Assembly (NCBI GenBank): GCA_043808545.1
Contig: JAZDEU010000002.1
Location: forward strand, 1 to 32,972
Reading direction: 5' to 3'
DNA from: a bacterium
Lineage (GTDB): Bacteria > Patescibacteriota > Patescibacteriia > JAZDEU01
Length of the DNA: 32,972 nt
The translations under genes and the position numbers were made by a program. Positions within the stretch are counted from its first letter, which is position 1; every line of letters starts with the position of its first letter. Shown piece by piece: positions 15,061-29,267 of the stretch. The notes below the pieces were generated by a model, which saw only the letters and a list, made by a program, of their open reading frames with translations, was not told the DNA's origin and searched no databases.

Positions 15061-15104
15061 AAAAAATAAGGCTTCGCAGTTTTGTAAAAACAACTGCGAA
15101 GCCT
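15061..15104 (-). terminator. Intrinsic terminator of the repeat-protein gene
   Basis: 13-bp stem AGGCTTCGCAGTT/AACTGCGAAGCCT followed on the minus strand by TATTTTTTTT. Confidence 0.75.
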
Positions 15105-15120
15105 GTATTGGCAGTAATCG

Positions 15121-15576
15121 TCAAGAAAAGAATAATTCCAAAATATTTTTCTCTTTGGCGCTATCAACGACCGCTTTCAGGGAAAGCTCGCGGCTAAGGT
15201 TGCGGACATCGCTATCACCGAAAGTTTGGCAGTTAATAAGATATTCCAGCTGTTTCGCCAATTCTTCCTCTGCTACTTTCAGGGAAAGCTCGCGGCTAAG
15301 GTTGCGGACATTGCTATCATCGGATTTTTGGCAGTTAATAAGATATTTCAGCTGTTTCGCCAATTCTTCCTCTGACATTCTGCGCATTACTTTCAGGGAA
15401 AGCTCGCGGCTAAGGTTGCGGACATTGCTATCATAGGATTTTTGGCAGTTAATAAGATATTCCAGCTGTTTCGCCAATTCTTTCGCCACTACTTCTGAAT
15501 TATTAACTGTCCTCATAACTTCCAAATGACTAATACTTCCTTTTTGTATCTCTTCAAAAATCATTTCTATAGACAT
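15121..15576 (-). CDS. Small hypothetical protein with three near-identical helical (HEAT-like) repeats
   Basis: 3x ELAKQL(E/K)YLINCQ...DS(N/D)VRNLSRELSLK. It has an upstream GAGGGG SD-like motif and a downstream terminator. Confidence 0.7.
   Translation of the reverse strand: MSIEMIFEEIQKGSISHLEVMRTVNNSEVVAKELAKQLEYLINCQKSYDSNVRNLSRELSLKVMRRMSEEELAKQLKYLINCQKSDDSNVRNLSRELSLKVAEEELAKQLEYLINCQTFGDSDVRNLSRELSLKAVVDSAKEKNILELFFS
15174..15482. repeat. Coding tandem repeat, three units
   Basis: Units start at 15174, 15276 and 15390 (periods 102 and 114 bp, both multiples of 3). Confidence 0.9.
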
Positions 15577-15606
15577 TTCACGCCCCTCATCTTAAATTGT
15601 TAATTT

Positions 15607-17421
15607 ATGCAAACTACAGAACAAAAAGATCAATATAATAAACTATCATATCTAAAAAAAATTGTCAAATATTTATTCTTTCTTTTTATATTTCTTTTGC
15701 CCATCCAAACCCGCTATATCTATCAACAAGCCACGCTAAATAATGGCGCGTGGGAATACGGGACTTTAAGCTTATACGCGACGGAAATCTTGTTAGGGAC
15801 AATAATTATTTTGTATATAATTGGATTTATAGGGGCGTATTCTAGGGCATATCGCAATATGCCCCTACAATTATACACTGAAAACGGGAAAAAAAATCTA
15901 AAAAATCCGCTTATTTTTTTACCGCTCGCATTACTGCTTTGGTCTGTAGCATCTATCTTTTGGGCTTATGACAAAATGCTCGCTTGGGATAGATGCATAA
16001 TTTTAATGGAAGGGATTATAGTGTATTTGTTCATTATTAAAATCCCCCTCTTTTCCAAAGAACCTGCCCTGAGCGATAGCCGAATGGGGGGGTTAGGGCC
16101 TGCCTGCCTGTCTGCGCAGGCAGGCGCAGGCAGGGAGATTTCTCCAAGCGCAAAACCTACTCAAATAGAAAACGCCTCCAGATATAACAACCCAGAAAAA
16201 TCCCCCTGTATCCCCCTTTACAAAAGGGGGAGCTATCTAATCCCCCTAATCGCCAGCGCAATCTGCCAATCAATGCTCGCTATTTACCAGTTCGCTTCCC
16301 AGCAAATAATTGCGAATAAATGGCTTGGCATAGCATCCCACTTGCCAGAAACACTCGGGACATCTGTTGTTGAAACGCCGCTTCGCCGATGGTTGCGCGC
16401 TTACGGAAGCCTGCCGCATCCTAATATTCTAGCGGCATATTTAGGAATTGCTCTCCTTCTCTTTATTATATTTATCTTCAATAAATCTCCAAAAAAAAAT
16501 CAGCAATCCGAACTTACAAATACCGAAGAATTAAAACAACGATTATCAGGGATACTAAAAGTATTCGCTATTTTCTTAATAAGCGCAGCTATTATTTTTA
16601 CATTTTCCCGCGCCGTATGGATAGGATTATTTCTCTCTATAATAATATTTTTAGTCTTTAATAAACTACCGCGTCATCCTGATAAAAATAAAACACGGCG
16701 TCATCCTTCCCCCGCTTTAGCGGGGGAAGGATATCTCAAAATGACACAAAATTTTCCCTTTATCCCATCTTTCGGTTTTTTTATTTTATTCCTCTTCGTT
16801 TTATTCCTCGCGCGCGAACCTATAATGGCGAGAATTTCAAATTCAAACAGATTAGAACAAAAATCAAACCAAGAACGTATGTTATCCTATAAAGAAAGCA
16901 AGGATATTATAAAAGAAAACTGGTTGATTGGAACTGGAATTGGAAATTACACTCTTGCTTTATACAAAAAAAATCCAAGTCTTTCCGCTTACGAATACCA
17001 GCCTGTTCATAATTTATTTATACTAATATTCGCCGAACTAGGAATCTTCGGCTTATTGATTTTTTTATTATTCCTTTTTTATATTACTAAAAAAATTATA
17101 CAAAATCACTTAGTGTCTGTTGAAATATTCGCAGAGTGTCATTCCGACCGAGCGAACCAGCCACCCAAACGGCTGGTTCGTAAGTGGAGGAATCTGTTTA
17201 TTAAACCAAATTTGGTGCGGTCAACAGATCCCCATTCGGCTATCGCTCAGGGCAGGCTCTCGGCTACACTCGGGATGACAAAGGAATACTATTTCAACAG
17301 CAACTACTTCATCATCTTATTTATATTCATACTTCTAATCTCTCTTTTTGACCATTATTTCTGGAGCCTGTATTTCGGAGTAATACTCTTCTGGATTTGT
17401 ATGGGAATTATAATCTCTTAA
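15607..17421 (+). CDS. O-antigen ligase (Wzy_C)-family membrane protein with multiple repeat-derived inserts
   Basis: Multiple TM helices; RAYGSLPHPNILAAYL, TFSRAVW, GTGIGNY, PVHNLFILIFAELG and LFDHYFW motifs. Confidence 0.88.
   Translation: MQTTEQKDQYNKLSYLKKIVKYLFFLFIFLLPIQTRYIYQQATLNNGAWEYGTLSLYATEILLGTIIILYIIGFIGAYSRAYRNMPLQLYTENGKKNLKNPLIFLPLALLLWSVASIFWAYDKMLAWDRCIILMEGIIVYLFIIKIPLFSKEPALSDSRMGGLGPACLSAQAGAGREISPSAKPTQIENASRYNNPEKSPCIPLYKRGSYLIPLIASAICQSMLAIYQFASQQIIANKWLGIASHLPETLGTSVVETPLRRWLRAYGSLPHPNILAAYLGIALLLFIIFIFNKSPKKNQQSELTNTEELKQRLSGILKVFAIFLISAAIIFTFSRAVWIGLFLSIIIFLVFNKLPRHPDKNKTRRHPSPALAGEGYLKMTQNFPFIPSFGFFILFLFVLFLAREPIMARISNSNRLEQKSNQERMLSYKESKDIIKENWLIGTGIGNYTLALYKKNPSLSAYEYQPVHNLFILIFAELGIFGLLIFLLFLFYITKKIIQNHLVSVEIFAECHSDRANQPPKRLVRKWRNLFIKPNLVRSTDPHSAIAQGRLSATLGMTKEYYFNSNYFIILFIFILLISLFDHYFWSLYFGVILFWICMGIIIS
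17111..17306. mobile_element. Composite MITE-like element inside the ligase CDS
   Basis: Terminal inverted repeats TAGT..CTGTTGAAATA / TATTTCAACAG..ACTA enclose a TGTCAT...ATGACA doublet (17137-17280). Same architecture as 29104-29267. Confidence 0.7.
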
Positions 17422-17445
17422 TTATTGTATAAAAAATATATCGGG

Positions 17446-17563
17446 TTGTCATTCCGACCGAAGCGAAGCCCGAAGGATGAGGGCAAGCGAAGCGGAGGAA
17501 TCTCTTTTAATCCCCATAATTTGGATTATTTAAAAGATTCCTCCACTTCGGTCGGAATGACAA
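17446..17563. repeat. TGTCAT-family inverted doublet between convergent genes
   Basis: ttgtcattccgaccgaag...ggaggaatct / agattcctcc...cttcggtcggaatgacaa. Confidence 0.85.
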
Positions 17564-17587
17564 AAAATAATTTTTACGAAAAATTCA

Positions 17588-18544
17588 CTACGCCACTATA
17601 AGCATATCCAAAAGCAATTCTATGTTAACAGAGCTTGACTTTGATTTTAAATCAATATTCATAATACATCTATAAATTTTTTTTAACGCTTCTGTATTAT
17701 AAAAACTGACTTGCGAATATAATTTTTGCGCGACGAACGGATGAATTTTCAACCCTAAAGCTAACGACCTGCTATTCGCCCTATTATCCCTGGCTAGATA
17801 ATCTTTTGCCTCTAATAAAAGTCGATACTGCCGCGCAAGCATAGCCAAAATATAATTTATATTTACGCCCAATCTTATCTGCTCAGTTAATAACCGCAAA
17901 GCAAGCTTCTTATTTTTTGCGCCGATCGCGTCAACTAAATTAAAAATATTATCATCATCTTTAGTTTTCACAAATTTTTTTATATTCTCGCAAGTTACAT
18001 TTTTATCATAGCTGATAATTTTTTCTATTTCATTATTCATGCTCCAAAGATCGCTCCCAATCCTCTCAATTAACATATTTACTGCCTCTGCCTTTATCTC
18101 TCCGCCTTTATCCGATACTTCTTTTATAATCCACTTTTTCAACGCAACACCCTTTAGAAGCTCAAACTCTTGCTTAAAAACAGACCCTGCGTTGAGTCCA
18201 GTCAAAAACTTAAATAACACATCTTTCTCTTTTTTTTCTTCCTCCCAAAAAATAAGAACATTTTCATTCCCGCCTGCATCTTTCTTCAAAAAATCAATTA
18301 TCTCTTTCTGTAAATTTTTATCTTTTCCCTTTGAAATAATGTTCCTTAAAATTATCATCCTTTTTCGCGACATAAAAGAAACCGTTGATATTTGCTTTTT
18401 AAATTCACCGTAAGTTAATTTTTCGCCATCAATATCAGCGAGATTCAAAGATCCGCCTTCAACTTCCCGCAGAAATCTATTTTTCAACTCTTTTAATTTT
18501 TGCAAACTCCGAAATGTATCCGGACCGTATAGGAAGATAATCAT
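17588..18544 (-). CDS. holA: DNA polymerase III delta subunit
   Basis: MIIFLYGPDTFRS start; SFMSRKRMIIL, NEIEK, IFNLVDAI, HPFVAQK and IDLKSK motifs. Confidence 0.93.
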   Translation of the reverse strand: MIIFLYGPDTFRSLQKLKELKNRFLREVEGGSLNLADIDGEKLTYGEFKKQISTVSFMSRKRMIILRNIISKGKDKNLQKEIIDFLKKDAGGNENVLIFWEEEKKEKDVLFKFLTGLNAGSVFKQEFELLKGVALKKWIIKEVSDKGGEIKAEAVNMLIERIGSDLWSMNNEIEKIISYDKNVTCENIKKFVKTKDDDNIFNLVDAIGAKNKKLALRLLTEQIRLGVNINYILAMLARQYRLLLEAKDYLARDNRANSRSLALGLKIHPFVAQKLYSQVSFYNTEALKKIYRCIMNIDLKSKSSSVNIELLLDMLIVA

Positions 18545-18950: not shown

Positions 18951-19931
18951 TCATCCCCCCCGATGGTATTTAATAAATGTCTCCCTTAAATGTTTGTCCG
19001 TAATATGCGTATAAATCTGCGTCGTGGTAATAGAAGAATGTCCTAGCATTGTTTGAACTGACCGAATATCCGCGTCATTAGCGAGTAAATCTGTCGCAAA
19101 CGAATGGCGCAAAGTATGAGGAGAAATCTGTTTCGTTATTCCCGCAACTTTCGCGTATTTTTTTACTATTCTTTGAATAGTCCGCGGAGTTAAAGACTCT
19201 AAACTTTCATCTCTTTTATCTTTCGCCCGATCATGGCTTGAAAATAAAAACGGAGAAACATCCCGCCGAACATCTAAATATTTTTTAATCCAGTACTTAG
19301 ACTGATTAGATAAAAAAACTATCCTAACCTTGCGTCCTTTTCCCCGAACCGTCAACTCCTGAGCTTTGCTTTGGTCTGCCTGCGAAGGCAGGTCTTTTAA
19401 ATCTATTTGCTCTATTTTTAAATTTACCAGTTCTGAAACACGAAGCCCTGTTGAAAATAATGTTTCTAAAATCGCCTTATCGCGAAGCGCGATTAAATTA
19501 TTCCCCTCTTGAGATGGGTTAGGGGTATGTAGCGGAGCATTCAAAAATCGTTCTAACTCGGCGCCTTCTATAAAAGTTATATCTCGCTCCGACATCTTTC
19601 CTAATTCAATTTTTTCCGATGCCAAAGTTTTTACATCAATTTTCGCCAAATATTTTAAAAACGCGCGCAAAGAAATAAGATGGTAATTCTGCGTGCTTTT
19701 TTTCAAAGATTCCCCTTTTTCATTTTCCAGCCTGTTGAGCCACAACCGATATTGCGTAACATCTTCCAGCTTGATTTCAGACGAATCATCTATATTATGC
19801 TCCCCAGCCCAGGCAGCAAATCTTTTTAAATAAAATTCATAATTTTTAACAGTCGCCAAACTGCGATTTTTTTCAATCTCAAGATAGGTCAAAAATTTAG
19901 TTATGTATTTTTGTAGATTTTGATTCGCCAT
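18951..19931 (-). CDS. XerC/XerD-family tyrosine recombinase
   Basis: N-terminal SAM-like domain; RDKAILETLFSTGLRVSEL, GKGRKVR, HTLRHSFAT, LGHSS and TTQIYTH catalytic motifs are intact. Confidence 0.95.
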   Translation of the reverse strand: MANQNLQKYITKFLTYLEIEKNRSLATVKNYEFYLKRFAAWAGEHNIDDSSEIKLEDVTQYRLWLNRLENEKGESLKKSTQNYHLISLRAFLKYLAKIDVKTLASEKIELGKMSERDITFIEGAELERFLNAPLHTPNPSQEGNNLIALRDKAILETLFSTGLRVSELVNLKIEQIDLKDLPSQADQSKAQELTVRGKGRKVRIVFLSNQSKYWIKKYLDVRRDVSPFLFSSHDRAKDKRDESLESLTPRTIQRIVKKYAKVAGITKQISPHTLRHSFATDLLANDADIRSVQTMLGHSSITTTQIYTHITDKHLRETFIKYHRGG

Positions 19932-26692: not shown

Positions 26693-26998
26693 AACCATAA
26701 AAAAAATTTACCACTTTATAATTCCCCCTGCATATAGGGAATTTTTCGCAGGCGGCCAGTCATCCCACTGGCGCTGAAACATTATAAATGACGAAAAGCC
26801 ATTTTAAAATTGGTAAAAAAATTTTAAGTTATGCCCATGCAGAACCTTCCCATACAGGCATCTTTAGAGGATCATCTTTCCGTCCCGTCAGAGTCTCCGG
26901 CATGCCTTTGCTTCCTGTCTGCGCCAGCCTGCGCTGGCAGGCAGGGACCCTGACGCTTCAGCGAGATAAAATGTCGCGCCTTGCAAGGTTTTATGGTT
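26693..26998 (-). ncRNA. Candidate large structured RNA (~306 nt), unassigned
   Basis: A 10-bp terminal helix encloses at least seven helices, several of which pair through G-U only on the minus strand. A terminator follows immediately. Confidence 0.6.
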
Positions 26999-29103: not shown

Positions 29104-29267
29104 GGCTGTAGAAAAATCTTTTTTGTCATTCCTCCGCTTCCTGCCTGCGCAGGCAGGAGCGGAGGAATATTAGATCATGCTTAAAACTGTTATTATAAAT
29201 GCAATGGATGGCGCAATAACAGATCCCTCGGCAAGCTCGGGATGACAAGGTATATTTTTCTACACCC
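29104..29267. mobile_element. 164-bp composite MITE-like element with TTA direct repeats
   Basis: TTA|GGCTGTAGAAAAAT ... ATTTTTCTACACCC|TTA. It encloses a TGTCAT doublet (29124-29247) and the 18-bp palindrome CCTGCCTGCGCAGGCAGG (29140-29157). Confidence 0.78.

What the first reader, a model, noticed from the sequence alone, without database searches (positions are those of the whole stretch)
16040..16232. Triple-nested repeat inside the O-antigen ligase reading frame
Seen: an outer C-rich element (AATCCCCCTCTTT...AAAG/GGGGGTTAGGG/GAGATTT, with an inverted partner at ~16197-16232) carries the 27-bp element. At 16099-16134 it also carries CCTGCCTG[CCTGTCTGCGCAGGCAGG]CGCAGGCAGG, an 18-bp palindrome inserted into another copy of itself. 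The lengths 27, 18 and 18 are all multiples of three. The same 18-mer is at 29140-29157, with variants at 19375-19392 and 26914-26945. Inference: serial insertion events, each preserving frame, which gives an order of arrival.
Basis: seen in the sequence. Interest (0 to 1): 0.75.

Follow-up and report, generated by a model that had tools for sequence, protein, structure and literature searches.

The report
Stacked selfish mini-repeats inside a gene
A membrane-protein gene of an ultra-small groundwater bacterium carries a stack of tiny GC-rich repeat elements, inserted one inside another and read through as a floppy protein loop; this resembles the coding palindromes of Rickettsia and yeast mitochondria.

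Summary
The sequence is as described, and contigs from two samples give the same sequence. Window 16039-16250 lies in a 604-codon Wzy_C ("O-antigen ligase"-like) gene of an 878-kb, 34% GC Patescibacteria genome.

It stacks four dispersed GC-rich repeat families:
- two three-arm C/G hairpin elements (BoxC/PIT-like design) in opposite orientation;
- a 27-nt oriented element;
- an 18-nt perfect palindrome, CCTGCCTGCGCAGGCAGG, present as a 36-mer that parses as one copy inside another.

Genome counts: 46 copies of the 18-mer at two or fewer mismatches, 11 copies of the 27-mer, 40 three-arm elements. Same-family orthologues lack the whole segment, and AlphaFold models it as a disordered loop.

Nested insertion is well supported for the 27-mer and for 36-mers, using paralogous empty sites in a 32-copy MITE. 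"Order of arrival at this locus" is only partly supported, because the composites recur elsewhere (C9, C24, two metagenome contigs) and may have arrived pre-assembled. Arm-wise duplication remains a rival for the 36-mer. Frame preservation is mostly survivorship.

No mobilising enzyme was identified. This is a new member of a known kind (RPE, intragenic REPs, yeast var1 GC clusters). This scan has reported the same phenomenon in other Patescibacteria genomes.

The parts
15607..17421 (+). Host gene: 604-aa Wzy_C / O-antigen-ligase-like polytopic membrane protein with three lineage-specific inserts
   Evidence: ORF. Pfam PF04932 at residues 320-487, E=2.5e-20. Homologues are mostly 408-548 aa. 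It keeps all 23 columns invariant in 50 sequences. AlphaFold2 gives mean pLDDT 82 and pTM 0.85, with pLDDT below 50 only at 153-205 and in short stretches within 365-386 and 535-559.
16039..16141 (+). Element E1: three-arm C/G hairpin element (C-arm CCCCCTC, loop, G-arm, TTAG, G-arm), interrupted twice
   Evidence: Intact relatives include C11:4472 CCCCCCCTTTCCAAAGGGGGGTTAGGGGGG and C54:645, plus C65, C9 and C20. There are 40 three-arm elements in the genome against 5 for the mirror-order control.
16061..16087 (+). 27-nt oriented element (AACCTGCCCTGAGCGATAGCCGAATGG) inserted at CCAAAG^GGGGG of E1
   Evidence: 11 genome copies. The unit length of 27 follows from the MITE copy with it against most full-length copies without it. 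By my reading, the flanks are AG^G in 10 of 11 copies.
16099..16134 (.). 36-mer: outer 18-nt palindrome (16099-16106 + 16125-16134) holding an inner copy, inserted at TTAGGG^GAG of E1
   Evidence: The outer copy equals the consensus with 0 mismatches. The same architecture occurs at C24, C36, C49 and, diverged, C42.
16107..16124 (+). Inner 18-mer, the 'T variant' CCTGTCTGCGCAGGCAGG
   Evidence: The same variant stands alone at C1:5486, C3:24201, C3:24233, C6:9640, C15:382, C27:8127 and C34:6933. It also occurs in other genomes: G003, G028, G042, G391 and G099.
16142..16194 (+). Non-repeated stretch between the elements, probably the native loop
   Evidence: No other genome copy beyond 14-16-nt chance matches. 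It aligns with loop residues of P0003 and P0004.
16197..16232 (-). Element E2: uninterrupted three-arm element in the opposite orientation (core 16202-16230)
   Evidence: Copies at C28, C55, C59, C20, C39 and C47, 86-95% identical. Another AATCCCCCT follows at 16239-16247.
16703..16732 (.). Second insert of the gene: unique 30-nt hairpin ATCCTTCCCCCGCTTTAGCGGGGGAAGGAT
   Evidence: Insert relative to homologues. No other genome copy at E<=0.05. Stretches with pLDDT below 50 lie within 365-386.
17117..17300 (+). Third insert: full MITE (inverted ends CTGTTGAAATA...TATTTCAACAG) read through in frame
   Evidence: 32 aligned copies with roughly 7-10-bp flanking direct repeats. About 35 translated matches in the genome. 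Absent from the G003 and G001 orthologues.
17230..17256 (-). Second copy of the 27-mer, nested in the MITE at GATCC^CTCGG
   Evidence: It is the only one of the 32 aligned MITE copies with this insertion. MITE-end fragments at C49:3673 and C53:2254 carry it at the same site.
29140..29157 (.). Consensus 18-mer at the apex of a longer hairpin (ATTCCTCCGCT...AGCGGAGGAAT), outside long open frames
   Evidence: (11-nt inverted flanks).
19375..19392 (.). Diverged 18-mer in frame inside a XerC/D-type integrase gene
   Evidence: Pfam Phage_integrase, E=3.6e-39.
26914..26945 (.). 32-nt nested variant (T-variant outer copy plus 14-nt inner part), outside long open frames

Best explanation
The segment is a pile-up of non-autonomous, GC-rich miniature repeat elements in a loop-coding part of a Wzy_C membrane-protein gene. 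There are two three-arm hairpin elements. One of them carries a 27-nt oriented element and an 18-nt palindrome nested in its own kind.

The elements are selfish DNA that spreads through this AT-rich genome and its relatives. They insert without a resolvable target duplication. They favour structured or repeated DNA, including each other and the centre of the 18-mer itself.

Copies that land in genes survive only if three conditions hold:
- their length is a multiple of three;
- they are free of stop codons in the frame hit (the 18-mer and the 36-mer are open in all six frames);
- they fall in a tolerant surface loop.

The insert is then simply translated as a disordered loop.

Shown here: repeat families and copy numbers, nesting, absence from orthologues, loop location, and an assembly reproduced in a second sample.

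Inferred: mobility as discrete units, translation of the insert, and that part of the stack arrived as pre-formed composites.

Unknown: the enzyme. My guess is trans-mobilisation by a single-strand, hairpin-recognising (HUH/Y1-type) transposase, or templated repair at hairpin breaks.
For: Dispersed families:
- 18-mer: 15 exact copies, 46 at <=2 mismatches, 51 at <=3 mismatches, in 878,563 bases.
- 27-mer: 11 copies.
- Three-arm elements: 40, against 5 for the mirror control.

Discrete insertion:
- The MITE copy with the 27-mer spans 181 nt, against about 154 nt in most other full-length copies.
- The 36-mer is exactly inserted in a MITE end at C49.
- In C65 and C47 the 27-mer sits at TTAGAG^GGGATTT, the site that holds the 36-mer in the window.

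Absent from orthologues: the G003 hit pieces jump from query residue 149 to 211 within 12 nt, and from 504 to 569 with no gap. G001 is similar. Eleven homologues lack most or all of it in alignment A1.

Tolerated loop: pLDDT is below 50 at 153-205, between helices 123-145 and 211-231 that score above 90. All columns invariant across the 50 aligned sequences are kept.

Genome-wide pattern:
- 15 of 15 long frames tested that carry the 18-mer are Pfam families, including PheT, MurB, TGT, MnmA, RecJ and a UvrD-like helicase.
- The TGT and MurB copies fall in stretches missing from solved homologues.
- 81 of 738 long frames hold a GC-rich repeat island, and this gene ranks first with 9 islands and 182 nt.
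- Only 22% of GC-rich repeat bases lie in open frames, against 82% of the genome.

Patchy, expansion-like distribution:
- 18-mer at <=1 mismatch: 38 copies in G000 and 5 in G003. Among 401 phylum genomes (G000 included) 14 have a match, with up to 20 copies outside G000. The reversed-pattern control gave 0.
- 27-mer: found only in this family. G003 has 12 and G002 has 4. None of the 400 other phylum genomes searched has it.

Independent assembly: contigs of two samples agree.
Against: - No mobilising gene was linked. The only Y1 transposase in G000 is an IS200-like gene with an internal TAG and its own hairpins.
- Five Y1-like genes fetched from 18-mer-bearing genomes have no flanking 18-mers. 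One copy lies about 1.9 kb away in L019.
- Co-occurrence of the 18-mer and Y1_Tnp is 12 of 14 genomes against 169 of 387 (p=0.002). This is not corrected for kinship and may only reflect general mobile-element load.
- No polymorphic or intermediate state of this locus was seen in 4 runs or in related genomes.
- No RNA or protein data exist, so translation of the insert is inferred.
- The 36-mer has an alternative origin (see rivals).
- The genome is 82% complete, so absences are weak evidence.
Confidence: 0.75

Rival explanations
1. The 36-mer did not arise by insertion of one 18-mer into another. It arose by duplication within each arm of a single palindrome (slippage or misaligned repair): CCTGNCTG doubled on the left and CGCAGGCAGG doubled on the right.
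For: - In two contigs of an unrelated organism (57-60% GC; L017, L018) the same motif appears with unequal unit numbers in the two arms. L017 has about 9 left units against 4 right units, and L018 has 3 against 2. The arms can therefore grow independently.
- G000 has one-sided forms: C1:5486 (extra CTGCCT on the left only), C58:19593 (extra CACAGGCAGG on the right only) and C34:6933 (extra CAGG).
- CCTG/CAGG tetranucleotide runs are slippage-prone (general knowledge).
- No single-copy intermediate was found at this locus.
Against: - It needs two matched events, +8 and +10 nt, where nested insertion needs one.
- The four well-preserved composites in G000 each add exactly 18 nt and restore the outer consensus at 0-1 mismatches. 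A fifth, at C42, is diverged with 3 mismatches.
- Simple slippage of CAGGCAGG predicts 4- or 8-nt periods. The 10-nt period CGCAGGCAGG actually seen is what insertion after position 8 predicts.
- The inner copy is the T variant, which exists as a free-standing subfamily at 7 loci.
- Whole 36-mers behave as discrete insertions at C49.
Confidence: 0.25
2. The inserted sequences are functional: for example a selected variable surface loop of the protein, or DNA/RNA structures (terminator, attenuator, protein-binding or uptake site) placed in the gene for regulation.
For: - The region folds more stably than shuffles (z=-3.9).
- The 18-mer is identical across distant families of the phylum, which could mean recognition by a conserved factor.
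- Several copies outside long frames lie 22-38 nt after a frame's end.
- Three-arm elements are not depleted in frames (24 of 40).
Against: - The same elements sit in 15 unrelated housekeeping and other genes, and all three frames are used.
- They are absent from orthologues in the same family.
- Distribution is patchy: 387 of 401 phylum genomes have no copy.
- The density, about 1 per 23 kb, is far below that of uptake sequences.
- No Rfam family matches.
- The inserted segment is modelled as disordered.
Confidence: 0.06
3. The stack is an assembly artefact: a chimeric join through short repeats.
For: - Short GC-rich repeats break assemblies. Several MITE copies lie at contig ends.
- The X3 contigs stop at 16092 and restart at 16161.
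Against: - Contigs assembled independently from two samples run through 15578-17259 and 15455-17252 with 0 and 2 substitutions and no gaps.
- No alternative joint was reported inside 16040-16232.
- The reading frame stays open through all three inserts.
Confidence: 0.02
4. The inserts are not translated. They are skipped at the RNA or ribosome level, as with the GC-cluster 'byps' of Magnusiomyces mitochondria.
For: A precedent exists for GC clusters in coding regions being bypassed during translation (PMC8811140, passages read). The elements are strong hairpins.
Against: - The in-gene copies I examined (the 18-mer copies and this locus) keep the frame and contain no stop, which bypassing would not require.
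- I found no clear case of a gene split by an element among the 23 copies outside long frames.
Confidence: 0.03

Closest known systems
Rickettsia palindromic elements (RPE; Ogata et al. 2000, as cited in PMC3184786, passages read)
   Same: Selfish palindromic repeats found in frame inside many housekeeping genes of a small AT-rich genome, translated as extra loop segments.
   Different: RPEs are about 105-146 bp, a single unit, and limited to Rickettsia. Here the units are 18, 27 and about 25-30 nt, belong to several families, and are nested. No sequence relation was tested.
Intragenic REP elements, GTAG/CGTC-tagged palindromes (PMC3733652, passages read)
   Same: Short GC-rich stem-loops, mostly extragenic, with some copies and clusters inside ORFs (clusters encoding 43-82 residues are reported). 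Copy number varies between relatives.
   Different: The 18-mer is a perfect palindrome. I saw no conserved GTAG or CGTC tag in the flanks of 46 copies. No RAYT gene flanked by copies was found.
GC clusters of yeast mitochondrial DNA, including in-frame insertions in var1 (PMC8811140, passages read)
   Same: GC-rich palindromic clusters in AT-rich DNA, in-frame coding insertions, and AG/TAG terminal repeats. The 27-mer here sits at AG^G in 10 of 11 copies. The clusters shuffle and combine into new clusters.
   Different: Organelle against a free bacterial genome. The sequences are different. No target duplication can be resolved here.
Short palindromic repeats of Volvox carteri organelle DNA (PMC2670323, passages read)
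   Same: Palindromes 'inserted within another palindromic repeat', giving larger composite repeats that recur at several places.
   Different: In Volvox they are confined to intergenic and intronic DNA and one rRNA module. Here many copies are in protein-coding frames.
BoxC / PIT / TMECO intrastrand-triplex motif repeats (PMC4666352, passages read)
   Same: Elements E1 and E2 and their 40 relatives share the three-block design of a C-arm, a short loop, a G-arm, a roughly 3-nt loop and a second G-arm.
   Different: The arm sequences differ: C5/G5 or CCCCTC/GAGGGG, against the consensus CCCTCNCCC. TMECO is reported as always intergenic in E. coli, whereas 24 of 40 copies here lie in long open frames. 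Triplex formation was not tested.

Membership tests
Wzy_C / O-antigen ligase family (host gene) | Pfam PF04932 match above the gathering score | tested here: met
   73.2 bits against a cut-off of 31.7, residues 320-487.
Wzy_C / O-antigen ligase family (host gene) | Conserved residues and polytopic helical fold retained | tested here: met
   All 23 columns invariant across the 50 aligned sequences are kept. AlphaFold2 pTM 0.85, with helices above pLDDT 90. Enzymatic activity was not tested.
REP / REPIN elements | Conserved GTAG (or CGTC) tetranucleotide at one end | tested here: not met
   I read the flanks of 46 copies and saw no conserved tag. The criterion comes from PMC3733652.
REP / REPIN elements | Cognate RAYT (Y1 transposase) gene flanked by the repeats | tested here: not met
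   The one Y1 gene in G000 is IS200-like, carries a TAG, and has no 18-mer nearby. Five Y1-like loci in other carriers were not flanked. G000 is 82% complete.
REP / REPIN elements | 20-40-nt GC-rich imperfect palindrome, high copy number, mostly extragenic | tested here: inconclusive
   It is 18 nt and a perfect palindrome. There are 46 copies, of which 23 lie outside long frames that cover 82% of the genome.
Rickettsia palindromic elements | In-frame presence inside many conserved genes | tested here: met
   15 of 15 carrier frames are Pfam families. The TGT and MurB inserts are absent from solved homologues.
Rickettsia palindromic elements | Unit of about 105-146 bp, sequence family of Rickettsia | tested here: not met
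   Units are 18, 27 and 36 nt. The RPE size is taken from PMC3184786. No sequence comparison was made.
Yeast mitochondrial GC clusters | GC-rich palindromic cluster in AT-rich DNA with in-frame coding insertions | tested here: met
   The genome is 34% GC and the region reaches 48-52% GC. The insertions are in frame.
Yeast mitochondrial GC clusters | AG/TAG terminal repeats read as target duplication | tested here: inconclusive
   The 27-mer flanks are AG^G in 10 of 11 copies (my reading), but no duplication can be resolved. The 18-mer has no such flank.
BoxC / PIT / TMECO triplex-motif repeats | Three consecutive blocks: C-arm, N3-6, G-arm, N3, G-arm | tested here: met
   Core 16202-16230 on the minus strand. 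40 genome matches against 5 for the mirror control.
BoxC / PIT / TMECO triplex-motif repeats | Consensus CCCTCNCCC...GGGNGAGGG...GGGNGAGGG; intergenic location | tested here: not met
   The arms are C5/G5 and 24 of 40 copies lie in long frames. The consensus is from PMC4666352.
MITE (third insert, 17117-17300) | Terminal inverted repeats, flanking direct repeats, many copies, no transposase | tested here: met
   32 aligned copies with inverted ends CTGTTGAAATAG/CTATTTCAACAG and flanking direct repeats of about 7-10 nt.

The most novel reading that the evidence does not exclude
The 18-nt perfect palindrome is itself a mobile unit, among the smallest known. It integrates without target duplication at the apex of DNA hairpins, including a fixed offset (after base 8) of its own centre. 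Repeated hits would then build (CCTGNCTG)n(CGCAGGCAGG)n arrays. It has spread horizontally among distant Patescibacteria families and into GC-rich bacteria. This would imply a hairpin- or cruciform-specific integration activity (an HUH/Y1-type enzyme or templated break repair) that has not been described.
Probability: 0.2. Interest if true: 0.7.

Novelty: new member of a known kind. Interest (0 to 1): 0.42.

Why it matters
It shows how far a streamlined, 0.9-Mb genome tolerates selfish DNA inside intact genes. Eleven per cent of long open frames carry GC-rich repeat islands, and one membrane-protein gene has gained about 150 codons from them.

For annotation, it explains over-long, low-complexity "loops" and GC spikes in Patescibacteria proteins, and the contig breaks in their assemblies.

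The nested copies give paralogous filled and empty sites. From these, unit lengths and target preferences of very small elements can be read without experiments. The self-nested 18-mer is a concrete substrate for testing how hairpin DNA is copied into hairpin DNA.

Tried and rejected
- DNA of the closest relative (P0003, 63% identity) could not be obtained. The search for related loci found nothing in genome contigs or metagenome contigs. The CLSAQAGAGRQ argument therefore rests on protein sequence only.
- The exact 36-mer pattern gave 0 hits in genome contigs. At three or fewer mismatches it gave 0 of 5 other 18-mer-bearing genomes.
- Reads: only Logan contigs were available, not raw reads. 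Nothing bridged 16093-16160 in X3, and X4 has no cover over 15637-16000. I treat both as uninformative.
- A universal flanking signature for the 18-mer was not found. Mean flank complementarity and direct-repeat scores are not significantly above controls (Mann-Whitney p=0.06 and 0.23). Only subsets stand out: 4 of 45 copies have inverted flanks and 7 of 45 have direct flanks scoring 8 or more, against 1.9% and 3.2% of controls.
- RAYT/REPtron idea: see the membership test; not met.
- TnpB (PF07282): no match in G000. Three DDE_Tnp_1 genes exist, but none of their contigs carries an 18-mer.
- Rfam: no relevant family. The single hit, E=0.47, is a plant miRNA model.
- My first 14-mer repeat census was dominated by AT-rich low complexity. 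I discarded it and redid it for GC-rich words.
- The search of earlier findings by sequence found nothing.
- Literature: searches listed no paper describing palindromic or MITE-like repeats inside genes of CPR/Patescibacteria. I checked the listings and abstract starts only. The library lacks most subscription journals.
Full report
**What is there**

The window is contig C2 of an 878,563-base, 71-contig genome with 34% GC. Its best protein matches are named Patescibacteria.

ORF 15607-17421 (+) encodes 604 residues with a Wzy_C "O-antigen ligase" domain (PF04932, residues 320-487, E=2.5e-20). The 119 listed homologues other than the gene's own entry are 408-548 residues long. Against 11 of them, the protein has three extra segments:
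- about residues 146-215, which is the finding;
- about 372-400;
- about 515-570.

GC rises to 48-52% over 16000-16400.

**Check of the observation**

The quoted sequence is exact. Removing 16107-16124 restores CCTGCCTGCGCAGGCAGG with no mismatch.

The window holds 8 strand matches to the 18-mer at three or fewer mismatches, against 0 expected in 100 shuffles. The copy at 29140-29157 is the perfect consensus, one base different from the inner copy.

The 26914-26945 variant is a 32-nt nested form lying outside long frames.

Logan contigs from X1 (possibly the source) and from a second sample, X2, run through the whole stack. They show 0 and 2 substitutions and no gaps, and no alternative joint was reported. 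These are contigs, not raw reads.

In X4, a diverged contig (22 differences over 16270-16448) has 52 leading letters that do not fit the window. This hints that a relative differs just where the stack ends, but I could not see those letters.

**Anatomy**

Four dispersed families are stacked.

(i) Two three-arm elements: a C-arm, a loop, a G-arm, a roughly 3-4-nt loop and a second G-arm.
- E1 (16039-16141) is on the + strand and E2 (16197-16232) is on the - strand.
- Intact relatives such as CCCCCCCTTTCCAAAGGGGGGTTAGGGGGG exist.
- The genome has 40 such elements against 5 for the mirror-order control, and 24 of the 40 lie in long open frames.
- A note from an earlier report of this scan led me to compare these with BoxC/PIT/TMECO triplex-motif repeats. 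The block design matches the published consensus layout, but the arm sequences and the intergenic-only location do not (PMC4666352, passages read).

(ii) A 27-nt oriented element (16061-16087).
- It has 11 copies.
- The unit length is fixed by a natural experiment. The MITE that forms the gene's third insert spans 181 nt here, against about 154 nt in most of the other full-length copies among the 32 aligned. The difference is exactly this element, at GATCC^CTCGG.
- By my reading, the flanks are AG^G in 10 of 11 copies.
- In C65 and C47 it sits at TTAGAG^GGGATTT of a three-arm element. In the window that same site holds the 36-mer, while the 27-mer sits at CCAAAG^GGGGG.

(iii) The 18-nt palindrome.
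- There are 15 exact copies, 46 at two or fewer mismatches, and 51 at three or fewer.

(iv) Its nested 36-nt forms.
- C2:16099 and C24:19502 are one type, split after base 8.
- C36:7717 and C49:3627 are a second type.
- C42:2448 is diverged.
- The C49 copy is an exact 36-nt insertion into a MITE end, CCCGAGCG^TAGCCGAG.

Between E1 and E2, 16142-16194 has no other copy. It aligns with loop residues of the two closest homologues, so it is probably native.

**Surroundings and relatives**

Same-family genomes G003 and G001 have the gene in 441- and 474-codon frames without the inserts. In G003 the hit pieces jump from query residue 149 to 211 within 12 nt, and from 504 to 569 with no gap.

AlphaFold2 on a 50-sequence alignment gives pTM 0.85. 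The helices score above pLDDT 90. pLDDT falls below 50 at 153-205 and in shorter stretches within the other two inserts. All 23 columns invariant across the 50 aligned sequences are retained. The gene therefore looks functional, with the stack read through as a disordered loop. That last step is inferred.

**Genome-wide picture**

- 23 of 46 18-mers lie in stop-to-stop frames of 100 or more codons, which cover 82% of the genome.
- 15 of 15 such frames tested are Pfam families, including PheT, MurB, TGT, MnmA (three copies), RecJ, a UvrD-like helicase-nuclease, two GT4 transferases and a second Wzy_C.
- In TGT and MurB, the 18-mer lies in stretches missing from solved homologues.
- GC-rich repeated 14-mers cover 2.3% of the genome, and only 22% of that lies in long frames.
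- 81 of 738 frames hold an internal island. This gene ranks first, with 9 islands and 182 nt.

The pattern is depletion by selection, with survivors in tolerant loops. The 18-mer and the 36-mer have no stop codon in any frame (read from the sequence). The 27-mer is open in 4 of 6 frames and is in an open one at both places in this gene.

**Distribution**

- 18-mer at one mismatch or fewer: 38 copies in G000, 5 in G003, none in G001 or G002, and 1-2 copies in 3 of the 57 other same-class genomes searched.
- In a phylum sample, 14 of 401 genomes have it, with 20, 11, 10, 7, 4, 3 and 2 copies in seven genomes of different families. The reversed-pattern control gave 0 everywhere.
- 27-mer: G000, G003 (12 copies) and G002 (4), and none of the 400 other phylum genomes searched.
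- The exact type-I 36-mer occurs in two contigs of a 57-60% GC organism. There it lies in a repeated sequence outside the main ORFs, and its arms have unequal numbers of CCTGYCTG and CGCAGGCAGG units.

**How it most likely works**

These are selfish miniature elements that copy themselves into structured or repeated DNA, including each other.

- A subset of 18-mers sits at the centre of other hairpins, for example window 29125-29172, C38:11813 and L019 in another genus.
- Five 18-mers sit inside other 18-mers. If copies landed at random I would expect about 0.05 such cases, because the 18-mers occupy only about 0.1% of the genome (my arithmetic).
- No target duplication can be resolved.

The enzyme is unknown.
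- G000's only Y1 transposase is an IS200-like gene with an internal TAG, unrelated to the repeats.
- Y1-like genes in other carrier genomes are not flanked by 18-mers.
- The co-occurrence of 12 of 14 against 169 of 387 genomes (p=0.002) is not corrected for kinship.

Nesting does record a relative order: a host element exists before its guest. It need not be the order of arrival at this locus.
- The C-rich+27-mer composite recurs at C9, 94% identical over 48 nt.
- Each 36-mer type occurs twice.
- The closest protein relative has CLSAQAGAGRQ in loop 3 instead of loop 1.

Composites probably spread as units.

Slippage remains a rival for the 36-mer. It is supported by the unequal arms in L017 and L018 and by the one-sided forms in G000. 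It is weakened by three points:
- the 10-nt right-arm period;
- the exact +18 nt, restoring the consensus, in the four well-preserved composites;
- the inner copy being a free-standing subfamily variant.

**Comparison with what is known**

- In-frame coding palindromes are known from Rickettsia (PMC3184786, passages read).
- Intragenic REP clusters encoding 43-82 residues are reported (PMC3733652, passages read).
- Yeast var1 carries in-frame GC clusters with AG/TAG termini (PMC8811140, passages read).
- Palindrome-in-palindrome nesting is described in Volvox organelles (PMC2670323, passages read).

The present case fails the REP tag and RAYT criteria and the RPE size criterion. It works like these elements but is not a member of those families.

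Two literature searches listed nothing on such elements in CPR/Patescibacteria genes (listings only). This scan, however, has reported the same phenomenon in at least eight other Patescibacteria genomes.

**Verdict**

This is a new member of a known kind. Its main interest is as the most heavily colonised gene of its genome and as a clean example of self-nesting by an 18-nt palindrome.

Noticed in passing
window 17117-17300; 31 other aligned copies in G000 (e.g. C16:6550, C28:3036, C48:25399): A MITE family of about 160-190 nt with inverted ends CTGTTGAAATAG/CTATTTCAACAG and roughly 7-10-bp flanking direct repeats of CTAnnTTAG type. Several copies lie at contig ends, so the family fragments the assembly. 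A few copies lie in long frames.
   Followed up: partly
G000 C58:30070-30220 (TGT), C34:6860-7020 (MurB), C3:24170-24290 (MnmA), C43:12020-12150 (GT4): Many 18-mers and some 27-mers are embedded in AT-rich 7-nt-period tandem or direct repeats (AAGTTTA, AGAAATT, CAAATCT types). In TGT and MurB these repeats are also absent from homologues. MurB has a 14-nt direct repeat, AAAGTCCAAAGTTT, on both sides. Seven of 45 copies have direct flanks scoring 8 or more, against 3.2% of controls. Unexplained.
   Followed up: partly
L017:1480-1610 and L018:1495-1545 (minus strand): An unrelated organism (57-60% GC) has a repeated element outside its main ORFs with shared flanks (CTTCGGCGCGA...GGCGCCCTACAATTC). 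Its core is a (CCTGYCTG)n(CGCAGGCAGG)n hairpin with variable unit numbers and contains the exact 36-mer of the window.
   Followed up: partly
G000 C67:300-760 (L015): An IS200-like Y1 transposase gene (139.6 bits) interrupted by an in-frame TAG and flanked by its own hairpins (CCACCGAC...GTCGGT). A DDE transposase with a TAA lies on the same 2.8-kb contig.
   Followed up: partly
window 15100-15580: A tandemly repeated, higher-GC stretch (44% GC) just upstream of the gene. It gives a 151-aa minus-strand ORF with a repeated ELAKQLEYLINCQK...NVRNLSRELSLK unit. Contig depth spikes here in all four runs, so this is probably another multi-copy repeat.
   Followed up: no
G000 C3:24078-25361: The mnmA gene carries three 18-mers in frame. 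One is in the linker between the HUP and PRC-barrel domains, and two, 32 nt apart, are inside the C-terminal domain gap. Earlier reports of this scan also flagged mnmA as a hotspot in other genomes.
   Followed up: partly
G000 C49:3600-3720: A second in-gene stack: a MITE-end fragment, a type-II 36-mer, a 27-mer and AACTTTG repeats, all in frame in an 1100-aa UvrD-like helicase / PD-(D/E)XK nuclease gene.
   Followed up: partly
G000 C42:8540-8600, C42:9460-9540, C47:12760-12880: BoxC-like three-arm elements of CTCCCTCTCC...GGAGAGGG...GGGGTGAGG type also serve as hosts. Two have an 18-mer and one has a 27-mer inserted in or next to the second arm.
   Followed up: no
window 17425-17601 and 17483-17565: Just after the gene's stop there are further GC-rich repeat pieces (a short ORF with the peptides RPKRSPKDEGKRSGGISF and STSVGMTK). 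Contig depth is high and many paralogous contig ends map here.
   Followed up: no
window 16270-16448, run X4: A contig about 88% identical (22 differences in 179 nt, mostly at third codon positions by their spacing) whose preceding 52 letters do not match the window. This is probably a related strain or species with a different sequence where the stack ends.
   Followed up: no
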